Shown: piece after piece, positions 26,530 through 38,917 of the stretch
Layout: every line of letters starts with the position of its first letter
How positions within the stretch are numbered: position 1 is the first letter of the stretch
Sequence record: MT740315.1
Length of the DNA: 39,195 nucleotides
Reading direction: 5' to 3' (one strand)
Origin: Escherichia phage JEP4
The notes under the pieces: generated by a model
Databases searched by the model: none
Seen by the model: only the letters and a program-made list of their open reading frames with translations
Told to the model about the DNA's origin: nothing
Program-made: the position numbers and the translations under genes

Positions 26530-26662
26530 TTTTGGGAACTCCTGGCTGATTAAGTACGTCGATGAGTCGTTTCCATCCGTCACGTAATTTACGGGTGATT
26601 CGTTCAAGTAAAGATTCGGAAGGGCAGCCAGCAACAGGCCACCCTGCAATGGCATATTGCAT
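26522..26662 (-). CDS. cIII: CIII-like protease inhibitor (46 aa)
   Basis: MQYAIAGWPVAGCPSESLLERITRKLRDGWKRLIDVLNQPGVPKNG matches lambda CIII; ORF-track 26722 start is an extension. Confidence 0.75.
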   Translation of the reverse strand: MQYAIAGWPVAGCPSESLLERITRKLRDGWKRLIDVLNQPGVPKNG

Positions 26663-26722
26663 GGTGTGCTCCTTATTTATACATAACGAAAACGCCTCGA
26701 GTGAAGCGTTATTGGTATGCAT

Positions 26723-34798: not shown

Positions 34799-35447
34799 TG
34801 GCAGCAAATACCGGAATATTTGGGTAGTTGGCGATCTGCACGGATGCTACACGAACCTGATGAAAAAACTGGAGACGATAGGATTCGACATCAAAAAAGA
34901 CCTGCTTATCTCGGTTGGCGATTTGGTCGATCGCGGTACAGAGAACGTCGAATGCCTGGAATTAATCACATTCCCCTGGTTCAGAGCTGTACGTGGAAAC
35001 CATGAGCACATGATGATTGATGGCTTATCAGAGCGTGGAAACGTCAATCACTGGCTGCTTAATGGCGGTGTCTGGTTCTTTAATCTCGATTACGACAAAG
35101 AAATTCTGGCTAAAGCTCTTGCCCATAAAGCAGAAGAACTTCCGTTAATCATCGAACTGGTGAGCAAAGGTAAAAAATATGTCATCTGCCACGCCGATTA
35201 TCCTTGTGACGAATACGAATTTGGAAAGCCAGTTGATCATCAGCAGGTAATCTGGAACCGCGAACGAATCAGCAACTCACAAGACGGGATCGTGAAAGAA
35301 ATTAAAGGCGCGGACACGTTTATCTTTGGTCATACGCCAGCAGTGAAACCACTTAAATTTGCCAACCAAATGTATATCGATACCGGCGCAGTGTTCTGCG
35401 GAAACCTCACATTGATTCAGGTACAGGGAGAAGGCGCGTGGGCATAA
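34776..35447 (+). CDS. Ser/Thr protein phosphatase (lambda NinI/PPase-type)
   Basis: Metallophosphatase motifs GDLHGC, GDLVDRG, GNHE; matches lambda phosphatase as recalled. Confidence 0.9.
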
Positions 35448-35926
35448 GAGAACTAAACCTCACCAAAGAACAGCATGAGTGGCTGAATGGCTGGCTTGAA
35501 CTGTGGGGCGCATGGGTTTATTCAGGTCGTCTGGAAAAGCGCATGAGCAGCGTAATAGCGAAGTTCATGGAGAGCGTAGAGCCGGGAAGAGTTATGACAA
35601 GGCCAATGTGCAATGATGATGATGGAATGTTGATTTCTCAGGTCGTCGATTCCGTCATGTGCATTGACAAGAAAGCCTTTGGCATCCTCCTCAGCTACTA
35701 CGCCCACGGTTCTTCCAAGCACGCCATTGCATCTTACTATCATCGCGTCGCAAGACCTCGCAAGATGTTATGCCGGGGCGGCGGGCGCATTCAAAAACCA
35801 TCGCTCGCAACCTGTCGTCGGGAAGTTGACGAAATCCTCAATGCCTCGTTGTTTATGATTTACCCGGTTCTGGATAGTGCGTTTAAAAACCGGAAACGTG
35901 TAGAGAAAATTAAACATGTAGCGTAG
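35438..35926 (+). CDS. Late-gene antiterminator Q (non-lambda, phage-82/QuuD-like family)
   Basis: GTG start with GGGAGAAGG SD; WLELWGAWV and [10 protein letters not shown] resemble recalled QuuD (WGAW, RPQCCDDDAM); sits directly upstream of late promoter region and lysis genes. Confidence 0.65.
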
Positions 35927-36060
35927 AACGTGTTGACATCATTGAGCAAATGAGCAACACTATTCGCATAAGCTGCCGTTAGTGACTCTTAAGTTGCAAC
36001 GGTGGCTTTTTTTGTTTGCACAACAGGTAAGAGCATTGAACCCGCAGACCTCGCGGAATT
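35927..36060 (+). promoter_or_regulatory. Late promoter (PR-prime-like) and Q-utilisation region; exact -10/-35 not resolved
   Basis: TTGACA at 35933 directly after Q; weak hairpin with T7 run (TGGCTTTTTTTG) near 36000; position by analogy with lambdoid late control. Confidence 0.3.
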
Positions 36061-36298
36061 GGTGAAAGGTGCCGCGCAGTGCTCTTATCGTTGTGGTGAA
36101 TGCACAGGCTGATGTGTAAGGGCAAGAATCTTTCGCTGGATTCGGTATGGCCACGTAGCCAGCTGTAGGCAGTTGCAGCAAACCGGAGATCAGCACCGGT
36201 CGCCACAATCCAAACTGAGCCGTAGCCACTGGATGTCCTGAATTCATCAGTGATAGTTATGCTGCGGCCTTCTACACATGATCTTCGTGAAAGCGGGC

Positions 36299-36335
36299 GG
36301 CATGAGGTTGCGCTAACAACCTCATGCCGTTTTGC
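36299..36335 (+). terminator. Strong rho-independent terminator in Q-S intergenic region (tR-prime-like)
   Basis: 12-bp perfect stem GGCATGAGGTTG / CAACCTCATGCC with 6-nt loop, followed by GTTTTG. Confidence 0.6.
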
Positions 36336-36453
36336 CCGTGCATATCGGTCACGAACAAATCTGATTACTAAACACAGTAGCCTGGATTTGTTCTATCAGT
36401 AATCGACCTTATTCCTAATTAAATAGAGCAAATCCCCTTATTGTGGGTAAGAC

Positions 36454-36777
36454 ATGAAGATGACAGAAAAACATGACCTGTTAGCCGCCATTCTCGCGGC
36501 AAAGGAACAAGGCATCGGGGCAATCCTTGCGTTTGCAATGGCGTACCTTCGCGGCAGATATAATGGCGGTGCGTTTACAAAAACAGTAATCGACGCAACG
36601 ATGTGCGCCATTATCGCCTGGTTCATTCGTGACCTTCTCGACTTCGCCGGACTAAGTAGCAATCTCGCTTATATAACGAGCGTGTTCATCGGCTACATCG
36701 GTACTGACTCGATTGGTTCGCTTATCAAACGCTTCGCTGCTAAAAAAGCCGGAGTAGAAGATGGTGGAAATCAATAA
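36454..36777 (+). CDS. S: Holin, lambda S-type (dual start Met1/Met3)
   Basis: [67 protein letters not shown] matches lambda S as recalled. Confidence 0.95.
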
Positions 36778-37237
36778 TCAACGTAAGGCGTTCCTCGATA
36801 TGCTGGCGTGGTCAGAGGGAACTGATAACGGACATCAGAAAACCAGAAATCATGGTTATGACGTCATTGTTGGCGGAGAGCTATTTACTGATTACTCCGA
36901 TCACCCTCGCAAGCTTGTCACGCTAAACCTCAAACTCAAATCAACAGCAGCCGGTCGCTACCAGCTTCTTTCACGCTGGTGGGATGCCTACCGCAAGCAA
37001 CTTGGCCTGAAAGATTTTTCTCCAGAAAGCCAGGATGCTGTAGCGCTGCAGCAGATTAAAGAGCGTGGCGCTTTACCGATGATTGACCGCGGTGATATTC
37101 GTCAGGCAATTGACCGTTGCAGCAATATCTGGGCTTCACTGCCGGGCGCTGGTTATGGTCAGTTCGAGCATAAGGCTGACAGCCTGATTGCAAAATTCAA
37201 AGAAGCAGGCGGAACGGTCAGAGAGATTGAGGTATGA
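36761..37237 (+). CDS. R: Endolysin, lambda R-type lytic transglycosylase
   Basis: [24 protein letters not shown]...; matches lambda R as recalled. Confidence 0.95.
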
Positions 37238-37701
37238 GCAGAGTAACCGCGATTATCTCCGCTCTGATTATCTGCATCATCGTCTGCCTGTCATGGGCTG
37301 TTAATCATTACCGTGATAACGCCATCGCCTATAAAGAACAGCGCGATAACAAGGCCAGTGAACTGGAGAAGGCGAACGCCACCATTACTGACATGCAGCA
37401 GCGCCAGCGTGATGCTGATGCGCTCGATGCTAAATACACGAAGGAGTTAGCTGATGCGAAAGCTGAAAATGATGCTCTTCGGCGCAAGCTTGATAATGGT
37501 GGTCGGGTGTTCGTCAAAGGAAAATGCCCTATGCCATCCTCAGCCGAAACCTCCAGCGCCTCCGGCATGGGCAATGATGCCACCGTCGAACTCTCTCCAG
37601 TTGCTGGACGAAACGTTCTCGGTATCCGGGACGGAATCATCAGCGACCAAACAGCACTGAGAACGCTTCAGGAATACATCAGGACGCAATGCCTTCGATG
37701 A
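37234..37701 (+). CDS. Rz: Spanin inner-membrane subunit Rz (divergent C-terminal half)
   Basis: N-terminus [31 protein letters not shown] as lambda Rz; ATGA overlap with R; contains Rz1 in the +1 frame. Confidence 0.8.
37454..37660 (+). CDS. Rz1: Spanin outer-membrane lipoprotein Rz1 (embedded in Rz)
   Basis: [21 protein letters not shown] lipobox; proline-rich [16 protein letters not shown]. Confidence 0.75.
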
Positions 37702-37874
37702 TAGCGATAATTTTACTCATCATCCTTCACATCTGGCTCTGTAGACAGGGTGGTACTCACTTCTGGAGCGAATCCAGATTAAACATCTCATTGCTGATGC
37801 TTGAAGTTAAGCATCTGGCGCGCGGTAAGGGGCTGCGTTGAGATAAGAGCCAGTCATCACAAACACCTGGATTT

Positions 37875-37898
37875 AGCCTCGCATTCGCGGGGCTTTTT
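37875..37898 (+). terminator. Rho-independent terminator downstream of lysis cassette
   Basis: GCCTCGC-attc-GCGGGGC followed by TTTTTT. Confidence 0.6.
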
Positions 37899-38046
37899 TA
37901 CATCTGCAGTAAACCGCGCATCGCAGCGCGTAACAATCCCGAGTCTTTCAGAAAGCTGAGCCTGAGAACTGCCGTATATGGTGGCGACCATCTCGGGGCG
38001 GCTTTTCTGTGCGAACAGGCTCATCTTTCTAAAAGGTAAAGACGCT

Positions 38047-38565
38047 ATGAATCATCAATTGGCTAATCTCGATTTCCGGGACATGGTGGTTGTTTCTGGT
38101 GATCGCGTGATCACAACCTCCCGCAAGGTAGCAGCTTACTTCGACAAGCAGCATCACCACATCATTCAGAAAATCGAAAAGCTAGACTGTTCGGATGAAT
38201 TTCTAACCAGCAACTTTTCGCGGGTTACCTATGAACACAAGGGTAATCAGTATGTTGAATATGAAATTTCCAAAGACGGCGCGATGTACATCATCATGTC
38301 GTTTACCGGCAAAAAAGCTGCCGCCATCAAAGAGGCGTTTATCAAAGCATTTAATTGGATGCGTGACAGGCTGATGGAGATGGCTCACTCATACCAAAGA
38401 GAGCACAACGAGTTAATGCTGGAGTTCATGAAGGAAAAGGATGTTGCCAGTATGTCAGGACGCTTGCTGAACCGCTGGGGCAGGATCAAAAAACCGCAAC
38501 TCATAGCAAGAATCAAAAGGCTTGAGCAGCAGGCGCAAATATCGATCCCCGGACTGCCAAAGTGA
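38047..38565 (+). CDS. rha: Phage regulatory protein Rha
   Basis: Start MNHQLANLDFRDMVVVSGDRVITTSRKVAAYFDKQHHHIIQKIEKL (Rha N-domain pattern); position after lysis genes as in P22; ORF-track start 37978 is an extension. Confidence 0.7.
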   Translation: MNHQLANLDFRDMVVVSGDRVITTSRKVAAYFDKQHHHIIQKIEKLDCSDEFLTSNFSRVTYEHKGNQYVEYEISKDGAMYIIMSFTGKKAAAIKEAFIKAFNWMRDRLMEMAHSYQREHNELMLEFMKEKDVASMSGRLLNRWGRIKKPQLIARIKRLEQQAQISIPGLPK

Positions 38566-38917
38566 CCATTCCAAAGCCCATCTACGGGTGGGCTTGATAA
38601 TGAAACCGTGATTTACATCCCCACAATCCGGGTATGTAAAAGATAGTTCAGGCGAGAACAGATTTAACTAAATCTGTGCACCACCAGTTACGGCAGTACC
38701 ACGAAGCAACCCAAGCCAGTAAGTGGGGAAATAACACTGGCAGCCACTGAAAGATGAACCTCCAGCCTTATGGCAAAAAAGATTCTTTGTGGTGGCGGAC
38801 TGATGGAAAGACATCGGTTATTGCAGAGGCCATTCAATGAGTGGTCTCGACAATGGCTTATACCCTACACGGGATAACTTAACTGACATCCCTTTTAACG
38901 GATAAACGGAGCCAACA

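What the first reader, a model, noticed from the sequence alone, without database searches (positions are those of the whole stretch)
37234..37701. Rz spanin with lambda-like N-terminus but divergent C-terminal half, co-varying with embedded Rz1
S and R look lambda-identical, but Rz diverges from my recollection of lambda Rz after about residue 80. The embedded Rz1 (lipobox VVGC, Pro-rich) also differs. This fits the known co-evolution of the interacting Rz C-terminus with Rz1 and marks another mosaic junction inside the lysis cassette.
Basis: partly seen in the sequence, partly recalled or inferred. Interest (0 to 1): 0.2.

Follow-up and report, generated by a model that had tools for sequence, protein, structure and literature searches.

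The report
Known mosaic Rz/Rz1 spanin (HK620 type)
The phage's outer-membrane-breaking gene pair Rz/Rz1 is a recombinant with a lambda-like front and a PS119/HK620-type back, an arrangement already catalogued and found in about a third of complete E. coli genomes, so it is ordinary.

Summary
ORF 37234-37701 is a 155-aa Rz i-spanin. Rz1 (37454-37660, 68 aa) lies wholly inside it in the +1 frame and has a VVGC lipobox and a Pro-rich mature part.

Against lambda, DNA identity is 90.2% over Rz nt 1-245 and about 51% over the rest. A maximum-chi-square breakpoint falls at 37467-37479 (permutation p<=0.0005). Proteins diverge from Rz residue 84 and Rz1 residue 9.

The divergent block is not new. It is 96% identical in DNA to gp15/orf44 of Salmonella phages PS119 and ST104, and the whole composite gene matches HK620, APC_JM3.2 and Kapi1. 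A match covering at least 80% of the gene occurs in 1772 of 5426 complete E. coli genomes. Kongari et al. 2018 already place HK620 Rz in the lambda i-spanin family and its Rz1 in a separate HK620 o-spanin family.

The "co-variation" is mainly physical linkage, because one DNA block encodes both the Rz C-terminal domain and mature Rz1. The published contact pair (lambda Rz E150 / Rz1 R59) is polar/polar here (T151/T60), which fits the published covariance.

"S and R lambda-identical" is only approximate: 98.8% and 93.7% nt.

Verdict: a real mosaic junction, already known, low interest.

The parts
36454..36777 (+). Holin/antiholin S. It has the lambda-type dual start Met1-Lys2-Met3 and forms the first gene of the lysis cassette.
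   Evidence: PF05106 at 104 bits. 320/324 nt and 105/107 aa identical to lambda S.
36761..37237 (+). Endolysin R (lambda-type transglycosylase). Its stop overlaps the Rz start as ATGA.
   Evidence: 447/477 nt and 153/158 aa identical to lambda R. Annotated as endolysin in lambda and HK620.
37234..37701 (+). Rz i-spanin, 155 aa. It has an N-terminal transmembrane helix (about residues 4-24), a long helix to residue 87, a low-confidence linker at 88-120, C-terminal helices at 122-154, and Cys98 and Cys153.
   Evidence: PF03245 at 102.8 bits and phrog_13 at E=1.6e-74. AlphaFold2 single-sequence model: H3-87, H122-129, H139-154, mean pLDDT 75.
37234..37478 (+). Lambda-like 5' part of Rz, encoding the TMD and most of CC1.
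   Evidence: 90.2% nt identity to lambda and 99.2% to APC_JM3.2 in 37350-37478. A sub-junction near 37349 coincides with the Sf6 'bsq7 boundary sequence'.
37429..37478 (+). Conserved island just before the junction. It encodes Rz Y68-L82 (the mutation-sensitive distal CC1 in lambda) and also holds the Rz1 Shine-Dalgarno (AAGGAG, 37441-37446), start codon and first 8 codons. It is the likely crossover site.
   Evidence: The alignment of the window with lambda, HK620, APC_JM3.2, ST104 and PS119 shows this stretch nearly invariant in those types; only its 5' part (Rz Y68-A75 with the Rz1 ribosome-binding site and start codon) is also conserved in Sf6, which diverges from about Rz1 codon 3. Breakpoint 37467-37479. 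Lambda CC1 mutational data.
37479..37701 (+). PS119/ST104/HK620-type 3' block. It encodes the last residues of Rz CC1, then the linker, CC2 and C-terminal tail, and Rz1 from residue 9 onward.
   Evidence: About 51% nt identity to lambda but 96% to ST104, PS119 and HK620. 75 phage records match at 95-99%.
37454..37660 (+). Rz1 o-spanin, 68 aa, in the +1 frame and entirely inside Rz. It has the lipobox MVVGC19, Ser at +2 (no Asp inner-membrane retention signal), Cys27, and a Pro-rich segment at residues 29-44.
   Evidence: PF06085 at 75 bits and phrog_3198 at E=9e-27. 67/68 aa identical to ST104 orf44 and 65/68 to the HK620 embedded ORF. Among 68 distinct relatives the wobble-position excess shifts to the Rz1 frame within the overlap (chi2=15.0, p=5e-4).

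Best explanation
The window is a complete P22-like (Lederbergvirus) E. coli phage genome. Its lysis cassette is S-R-Rz/Rz1, and Rz/Rz1 is an ordinary embedded two-component spanin.

Inferred mechanism, taken from lambda:
- Rz is anchored in the inner membrane by its N-terminal TMD.
- Rz1 is a lipoprotein sent to the outer membrane.
- Their C-termini bind across the periplasm.
- After the holin and endolysin have acted, the complex fuses the two membranes to complete lysis.

The gene is a recombinant relative to lambda. Nucleotides 1-245 (TMD and CC1) are lambda-like. Nucleotides 246-468, which encode the rest of Rz and essentially all of Rz1, are the PS119/ST104/HK620 allele.

The crossover lies at 37467-37479. 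It sits at the 3' edge of a roughly 50-nt island that is conserved in most allele types. That island codes for the functionally critical distal CC1 of Rz and also contains the Rz1 ribosome-binding site and start codon. It is therefore a natural site for homologous or homeologous recombination (inferred).

Both interacting C-terminal partners are encoded by the same DNA block, so they are always inherited together as a matched pair.

Shown here: gene structure, family membership, breakpoint, source allele, and distribution.
Inferred: the lysis function, the recombination mechanism, and pair specificity.
For: Gene anatomy and family matches.

Abrupt identity change against lambda (90.2% to about 51%), with megablast ending at 37478.

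Maximum chi-square of 90.4, p<=0.0005, break at 37467-37479.

The 3' block is 96% identical to ST104 and PS119. Their preceding Rz segment (37350-37478) is only 72.9% identical, and they carry unrelated holin and endolysin genes (gp13, gp19).

Of 80 IMG/VR loci with an Rz at least 88% identical, 50 sit behind a PS119-gp19-type endolysin and 30 behind a lambda-type R. The spanin pair therefore assorts as its own module.

The composite gene is full-length in HK620, APC_JM3.2, Kapi1 and others. A match covering at least 80% of it occurs in 1772 of 5426 complete E. coli genomes.

The codon-phase shift of polymorphism in the overlap shows selection on the Rz1 frame.

Literature:
- HK620 i-spanin is in the lambda family and its o-spanin in a separate HK620 family (PMC6139136).
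- Lambda Rz domain map, and E150/R59 covariance with charge-swap suppression (PMC5295617).
- Here the aligned residues are T151 and T60.
Against:
- The direction of the exchange is unresolved: either this lineage or lambda could be the recombinant.
- The crossover mechanism is inferred only from the position of the conserved island.
- The AlphaFold2 model was made without an alignment and is of low confidence after residue 88.
- The codon-phase test counts variants in related sequences, so they are not independent events.
Confidence: 0.92

Rival explanations
1. There was no recombination. The 3' half of Rz simply evolves much faster than the 5' half, because in lambda the linker region that overlaps Rz1 tolerates mutation. 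On this view the difference from lambda is vertical divergence.
For: In lambda, Rz residues 94-134 are mutationally silent (PMC5295617). The two C-terminal halves are still homologous (35% aa identity, E=2e-11).
Against: The identity step occurs within about 12 nt. The same 3' block is 96% identical in Salmonella phages whose adjacent 5' Rz segment is only 73% identical and whose holin and endolysin are unrelated. Divergence also covers CC2 and the C-terminal tail, which are not mutationally silent.
Confidence: 0.03
2. The junction is real, but lambda is the recombinant. On this view the arrangement in the window (also seen in HK620, APC_JM3.2 and many prophages) is the older combination, and lambda acquired its own C-terminal/Rz1 block.
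For: The lambda-type 3' block also occurs with other partners: the lambda o-spanin family has 28 members.
Against: Nothing here polarises the event. This is a variant of the best explanation rather than a true alternative, because both imply the same junction and the same modular structure.
Confidence: 0.4
3. The junction is an assembly chimera, or the embedded ORF is a chance open frame rather than a gene.
For: None specific. Short ORFs in alternative frames are common (one search lists many).
Against: - The same composite is found in independently sequenced phages and in about a third of complete E. coli genomes.
- The embedded ORF matches Pfam Rz1 at 75 bits against a cutoff of 27.9.
- It has a Shine-Dalgarno sequence and a lipobox.
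- It shows a wobble-position polymorphism signature in its own frame.
Confidence: 0.01

Closest known systems
Coliphage HK620 Rz and its unannotated embedded Rz1 (NC_002730; Kongari et al. 2018 'HK620' o-spanin family), together with close relatives APC_JM3.2, Kapi1 and vB_EcoP-611R6
   Same: It has the same composite, with a lambda-like 5' part and a PS119-type 3' part. It has the same 468-nt gene and the same Rz1 position (nt 221). The S-R-Rz region is 95-97% identical in DNA. Rz1 is 65/68 aa identical. Both are P22-like podophage genomes.
   Different: - There are a few substitutions, for example Rz1 lipobox VVGC here versus VAGC in HK620.
- The segment 37350-37478 is closer to APC_JM3.2 (99.2%) than to HK620 (92.2%).
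- Downstream, a Rha-family gene here replaces the KilA-N gene of HK620.
Salmonella phages PS119 and ST104: gp15 (Rz) with orf44 (Rz1)
   Same: The 3' block 37479-37701 is 96% identical in DNA. Rz1 is 67/68 aa identical to ST104 orf44.
   Different: The CC1-coding segment 37350-37478 is only 72.9% identical. The upstream holin (gp13, 67 aa) and endolysin (gp19) belong to different families from lambda S and R.
Phage lambda Rz/Rz1 (the experimentally characterised embedded two-component spanin)
   Same: - Same architecture, gene order, ATGA overlap with R, and Rz1 start position.
- Same TMD (20 of 21 residues).
- CC1 residues 63-83 are identical.
- Both periplasmic Cys of Rz and the single periplasmic Cys of Rz1 are conserved.
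- Same Pfam families.

   Different: - From Rz residue 84 the proteins are 35% identical, and Rz1 is about 46% identical.
- Rz1 is 8 residues longer.
- The contact pair E150/R59 is T151/T60 here.
- Kongari et al. put the two o-spanins in different families.
Shigella phage Sf6 gp63/gp64 (HK97-type o-spanin) and its annotated intragenic 'bsq7 boundary sequence'
   Same: It has the same first 116 nt of Rz (93%) and the same last 36 nt, including the tail EYIRTQCLR. It is followed by the same 'gene 65' small ORF overlapping the Rz stop.
   Different: The central part of Rz and all of Rz1 are different alleles (52-55% nt; Rz1 35% aa). Sf6 Rz1 has no periplasmic Cys.

Membership tests
Embedded two-component spanin (lambda Rz/Rz1 class) | The i-spanin has a single N-terminal transmembrane helix (type II) and matches the Rz family profile. 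| tested here: met
   Residues 4-24 are hydrophobic and differ from the lambda TMD only by V12I. PF03245 scores 102.8 bits against a cutoff of 25.4. phrog_13 gives E=1.6e-74.
Embedded two-component spanin (lambda Rz/Rz1 class) | The periplasmic part of the i-spanin consists of two helical (coiled-coil) segments separated by a flexible linker. | tested here: met
   The AlphaFold2 single-sequence model shows a helix at 3-87 (pLDDT >90 to about residue 70), a low-confidence stretch at 88-120, and helices at 122-129 and 139-154. This mirrors lambda's CC1 27-87, L2 89-120 and CC2 121-150. It is a prediction only, and coiled-coil propensity was not computed.
Embedded two-component spanin (lambda Rz/Rz1 class) | The o-spanin is a small lipoprotein with a signal peptide, a lipobox Cys, no inner-membrane retention residue, and a Pro-rich mature part. 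| tested here: met
   The lipobox is M-V-V-G-C19 followed by Ser-Ser. 8 of the 50 mature residues are Pro. PF06085 scores 75 bits against a cutoff of 27.9.
Embedded two-component spanin (lambda Rz/Rz1 class) | The o-spanin gene lies entirely within the i-spanin gene in the +1 frame, directly downstream of the endolysin gene. | tested here: met
   Rz1 (37454-37660) lies inside Rz (37234-37701), starting at Rz nt 221 as in lambda. The R stop and Rz start overlap as ATGA.
Embedded two-component spanin (lambda Rz/Rz1 class) | Periplasmic cysteines are available for the intermolecular disulfides of the homodimers. | tested here: met
   Rz has C98 and C153 (lambda C99 and C152). Rz1 has C27 (lambda C29). 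Disulfide formation itself cannot be tested here.
Embedded two-component spanin (lambda Rz/Rz1 class) | The pair is required for outer-membrane disruption at lysis, giving a lysis defect in the presence of divalent cations when mutated. | not testable with these tools
   This needs genetics: complementation of lambda Rz-am and Rz1-am lysogens.
HK620 o-spanin family (Kongari et al. 2018) | Sequence clusters with the Rz1 equivalents of HK620, ST104, SE1, mEp460, SPN9CC and Oslo. | tested here: met
   65/68 aa identical to HK620 and 67/68 to ST104 orf44. The 3' block matches ST104, SE1, mEp460, SPN9CC and Oslo at 96-98% nt. Family list taken from PMC6139136.
Lambda o-spanin family (Kongari et al. 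2018) | Sequence clusters with lambda Rz1 under that paper's BLASTclust criterion. | tested here: not met
   Identity to lambda Rz1 is only 46-47%. The paper places HK620-type o-spanins in a separate family. The clustering was not re-run. Both proteins still match the same Pfam Rz1 model.
Lambda i-spanin family (Kongari et al. 2018, 83 members) | Full-length alignable similarity to lambda Rz. | tested here: met
   tblastn aligns residues 21-153 to lambda Rz at 56% identity, E=1e-35. HK620, ST104 and Oslo are listed as members.

The most novel reading that the evidence does not exclude
The roughly 50-nt island at 37429-37478 is constrained twice over. It encodes the mutation-sensitive distal CC1 of Rz, and it contains the ribosome-binding site, start codon and first codons of Rz1. 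Under this reading it acts as a preferred crossover point. Whole 'Rz C-terminus plus Rz1' cassettes would be shuffled there among lambdoid and P22-like phages. The resulting allele classes (lambda, HK620/PS119, Sf6/HK97) would be pair-specific, meaning Rz from one class would not work with Rz1 from another. If so, natural chimeras like this one would map the specificity determinants of the spanin interface to residues after Rz 83.
Probability: 0.35. Interest if true: 0.25.

Novelty: already known. Interest (0 to 1): 0.08.

Why it matters
It matters little beyond correct annotation. It confirms that the window carries a complete and probably functional lysis cassette. It also gives one more clean example of intragenic mosaicism in lambdoid phages, in which the embedded gene arrangement forces the two interacting spanin domains to travel together. 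Natural chimeras of this kind could help choose constructs for mapping Rz-Rz1 pair specificity. However, the allele, its family assignment and the covariance of the interface residues have all been published.

Tried and rejected
- **Gradual divergence instead of recombination.** Rejected, because ST104 and PS119 share the 3' block at 96% but the adjacent 5' segment at only 73%.
- **Chance ORF for Rz1.** Rejected on the Pfam and PHROG matches and on the codon-phase shift of polymorphism.
- **A window-specific new allele.** Rejected. The best phage match is 96.6% over S-R-Rz, the best E. coli prophage match is 97.9% over Rz, and 80 IMG/VR loci have 88-97% aa identity.
- **Non-coding features at the locus.** None were found. 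The window has no tRNA genes. Its only Rfam hit is the cIII thermoregulator far away at 26617-26675. The promoter and terminator scan of 35900-38700 gave nothing above shuffle expectation inside Rz.
- **A paper on co-transfer of interdependent genes in lambdoid phages (PMC9836094).** It does not discuss spanins.
- **One literature search failed** because a term was too short.
- **Not used,** because the question did not warrant the cost: the 5.8-billion-protein search, the representative-protein search, and the fold searches.

Full report
**What is at the coordinates**

The ORF 37234-37701 (+) runs from ATG to TGA and encodes 155 aa. Its ATG overlaps the stop of the preceding 158-aa ORF as ATGA. 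Three lines of evidence identify it as an Rz i-spanin:
- It matches Pfam PF03245 (bacteriophage Rz lysis protein) at 102.8 bits, against a gathering score of 25.4.
- It matches phrog_13 'Rz-like spanin' at E=1.6e-74.
- A single-sequence AlphaFold2 model (mean pLDDT 75) gives one long helix at residues 3-87, a low-confidence stretch at 88-120, and helices at 122-129 and 139-154.

The model has the same plan as the published lambda map: TMD 1-24, CC1 27-87, L2 89-120, CC2 121-150 (PMC5295617).

A 68-aa ORF at 37454-37660 lies entirely inside Rz in the +1 frame. AAGGAG sits 7 nt upstream of its ATG. It has a signal peptide ending in the lipobox M-V-V-G-C19, Ser at +2, a second Cys at position 27, and 8 Pro among its 50 mature residues. 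It matches Pfam PF06085 (lipoprotein Rz1 precursor) at 75 bits against a cutoff of 27.9, and phrog_3198.

Upstream are a lambda-type holin S (36454-36777, PF05106) and the endolysin R (36761-37237).

**Comparison with lambda**

I fetched the lambda, HK620, APC_JM3.2, Sf6, ST104 and PS119 loci and aligned them.

| Region | DNA identity to lambda | Protein identity to lambda |
|---|---|---|
| S | 320/324 (98.8%) | 105/107 |
| R | 447/477 (93.7%) | 153/158 |
| Rz nt 1-245 | 221/245 (90.2%) | 70 of the first 82 residues |
| Rz nt 246-468 | about 51% | 35% (BLASTP E=2e-11) |
| Rz1 | not computed | 46-47% |

Megablast to lambda ends at window position 37478. A maximum-chi-square test with lambda and ST104 as the two putative parents puts the break between 37467 and 37479. 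To the left, 27 of 33 informative sites are lambda-like. To the right, 2 of 97 are. The statistic is chi2 = 90.4, with p<=0.0005 from 2000 permutations.

Nucleotide divergence starts in Rz codon 82. Amino-acid divergence starts at Rz residue 84 and Rz1 residue 9. Its 'S and R look lambda-identical' is only approximately right.

**Where the divergent half comes from**

The block 37479-37701 is 96% identical in DNA to gene 15 of Salmonella phages PS119 and ST104. The window's Rz1 is 67/68 aa identical to ST104 orf44. Seventy-five phage records carry this block at 95-99% identity.

In ST104 and PS119 the adjacent CC1-coding segment (37350-37478) is only 72.9% identical to the window. Their upstream holin (gp13) and endolysin (gp19) belong to different families. 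This excludes simple rate heterogeneity and shows a genuine exchange.

The full composite, with a lambda-like 5' part and a PS119-like 3' part, is the HK620 allele. HK620, APC_JM3.2, Kapi1 and others match the whole S-R-Rz stretch at 95-97%. The 2001 HK620 record already notes 'similar to Rz protein of bacteriophage PS119'.

The allele is also common:
- A megablast match covering at least 80% of the gene is present in 1772 of 5426 complete E. coli genomes.
The best 80 have Rz proteins 88-97% identical to the window's.
- Of those 80 loci, 50 lie behind a PS119-gp19-type endolysin and 30 behind a lambda-type R.

The Rz/Rz1 pair therefore assorts independently of the rest of the lysis cassette.

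**Finer mosaic structure**

Rz is a patchwork of at least three segments.
- The first 116 nt (TMD and juxtamembrane part) are 91-93% identical in all six comparison phages.
- Sf6-type genes diverge at about 37349, where the Sf6 record annotates an intragenic 'bsq7 boundary sequence'.
- The last 36 nt, and the downstream small ORF, are again shared with the Sf6, Sf101 and g341c types.

Just 5' of the lambda/HK620 junction lies a roughly 50-nt island (37429-37478). It is nearly invariant in the lambda, HK620, APC_JM3.2, ST104 and PS119 types. In Sf6 only its 5' part is conserved: Rz Y68-A75 with the Rz1 ribosome-binding site and start codon. The island encodes Rz Y68-L82, which lies in the distal CC1 where 62% of lambda missense lysis-defective mutations cluster. 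It also contains the Rz1 Shine-Dalgarno, start codon and first eight codons.

I infer that this doubly constrained island supplies the homology for crossovers. That inference is not tested here.

**Is Rz1 a real gene here?**

Besides the profile matches, I examined 68 distinct Rz sequences: the window, the 80 IMG/VR loci, HK620, APC_JM3.2, ST104 and PS119.
- In the Rz-only 5' region, variants fall at Rz codon positions 1/2/3 as 26/31/64, which is the usual wobble excess.
- In the stretch overlapping mature Rz1 they fall 24/8/14. The excess moves to Rz position 1, which is Rz1 position 3 (chi2 = 15.0, p = 5e-4).

This indicates purifying selection on the Rz1 frame. It agrees with the lambda result that Rz codons overlapping mature Rz1 are mutationally silent. 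One caveat applies: the sequences are related, so the variants are not independent events.

**The 'co-variation' claim**

The exchanged 223 nt encode both the Rz C-terminal part and Rz1 from residue 9 onward. The two partners therefore cannot be separated by a crossover, and the co-variation is first of all physical linkage.

Real interface covariance is nevertheless published. Cahill et al. showed that Rz E150 and Rz1 R59 covary among lambdoid spanins, and that Rz1 R59E suppresses Rz E150R. The aligned positions compare as follows:

| Phage | Rz position | Rz1 position |
|---|---|---|
| lambda | E150 | R59 |
| window | T151 | T60 |
| Sf6 | T (same Rz tail as the window) | V |

This is the charged-to-uncharged change on both sides that the paper describes. 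The window is consistent with the known pattern and adds nothing new to it.

**Comparison with what is known, and novelty**

Kongari et al. 2018 list HK620, ST104, SE1, mEp460, SPN9CC and Oslo in the 83-member lambda i-spanin family. They place the o-spanins of these phages in a separate 14-member HK620 family, and they comment explicitly on this discordance between i- and o-spanin families.

All sequence-testable defining features of an embedded two-component spanin are met. Function cannot be tested here. The finding is a correct reading of a real junction, but the allele, its classification, intragenic boundaries in this gene, and the interface covariance are all already described.

Two things remain undecided: which lineage is the recombinant, and whether the allele classes are functionally pair-specific.

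**Context**

The window begins with the small and large terminase genes. It matches P22-like coliphages (phiv205-1, E212, CUS-3, Gally, Kapi1, HK620) in patches of 93-97% identity, and no single record covers more than 66% of either piece queried. It is a typical mosaic Lederbergvirus genome.

Noticed in passing
window 37689-37841 (+): A 50-aa ORF with a hydrophobic N-terminus ([18 protein letters not shown]...) overlaps the Rz stop by 13 nt, exactly as Sf6 'gene 65' does. It matches phrog_11822 (unknown function) at E=3.7e-36. It is present downstream of Rz in 70 of 80 IMG/VR relatives, whatever the endolysin type. It may be an uncharacterised small membrane protein travelling with the lysis cassette.
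   Followed up: partly
window 37875-37894 (+): A terminator-like G+C-rich hairpin followed by TTTTTT lies just after the gene-65-like ORF, between the lysis genes and the Rha-family gene. It is a consensus match only.
   Followed up: no
window 38047-38565 (+): This ORF encodes a Rha-family regulatory protein with a C-terminal ORF11CD3 domain (PF09669 and PF10549). HK620 and ST104 carry a KilA-N domain protein at the same place. This is another module swap immediately downstream of the lysis cassette.
   Followed up: partly
window 37349 and 37666-37701: Two further intragenic junctions lie in Rz. Sf6-, epsilon34- and HK544-type genes share only nt 1-116, ending where Sf6 annotates 'bsq7; boundary sequence'. 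Sf6-, Sf101- and g341c-type genes also share the last 36 nt.
   Followed up: partly
window 36443-37432: Identity to lambda across S-R-Rz is patchy rather than uniform:
- 36443-36922: about 98%
- 36923-37102: about 88%
- 37103-37312: about 98%
- 37313-37432: about 82%

This suggests several older exchange or conversion tracts.
   Followed up: no
window 36761-37237 (R): The endolysin carries R25H, P57L and K89E. None of these is present in lambda, HK620 or APC_JM3.2 R. Their significance is unknown.
   Followed up: no
window 26617-26675 (-): The Rfam family Lambda_thermo (cIII thermoregulator RNA element) matches at 88.5 bits, E=1.8e-20. It is the only Rfam match at gathering threshold in the window.
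   Followed up: no
window 35438-36454: The Q-like gene here is a 162-aa ORF rather than the 207-aa lambda Q. The sequence upstream of S (36293-36453) is nevertheless about 97% identical to lambda and APC_JM3.2, and differs from HK620. There are no tRNA genes between Q and S, although Sf6 has two there.
   Followed up: no
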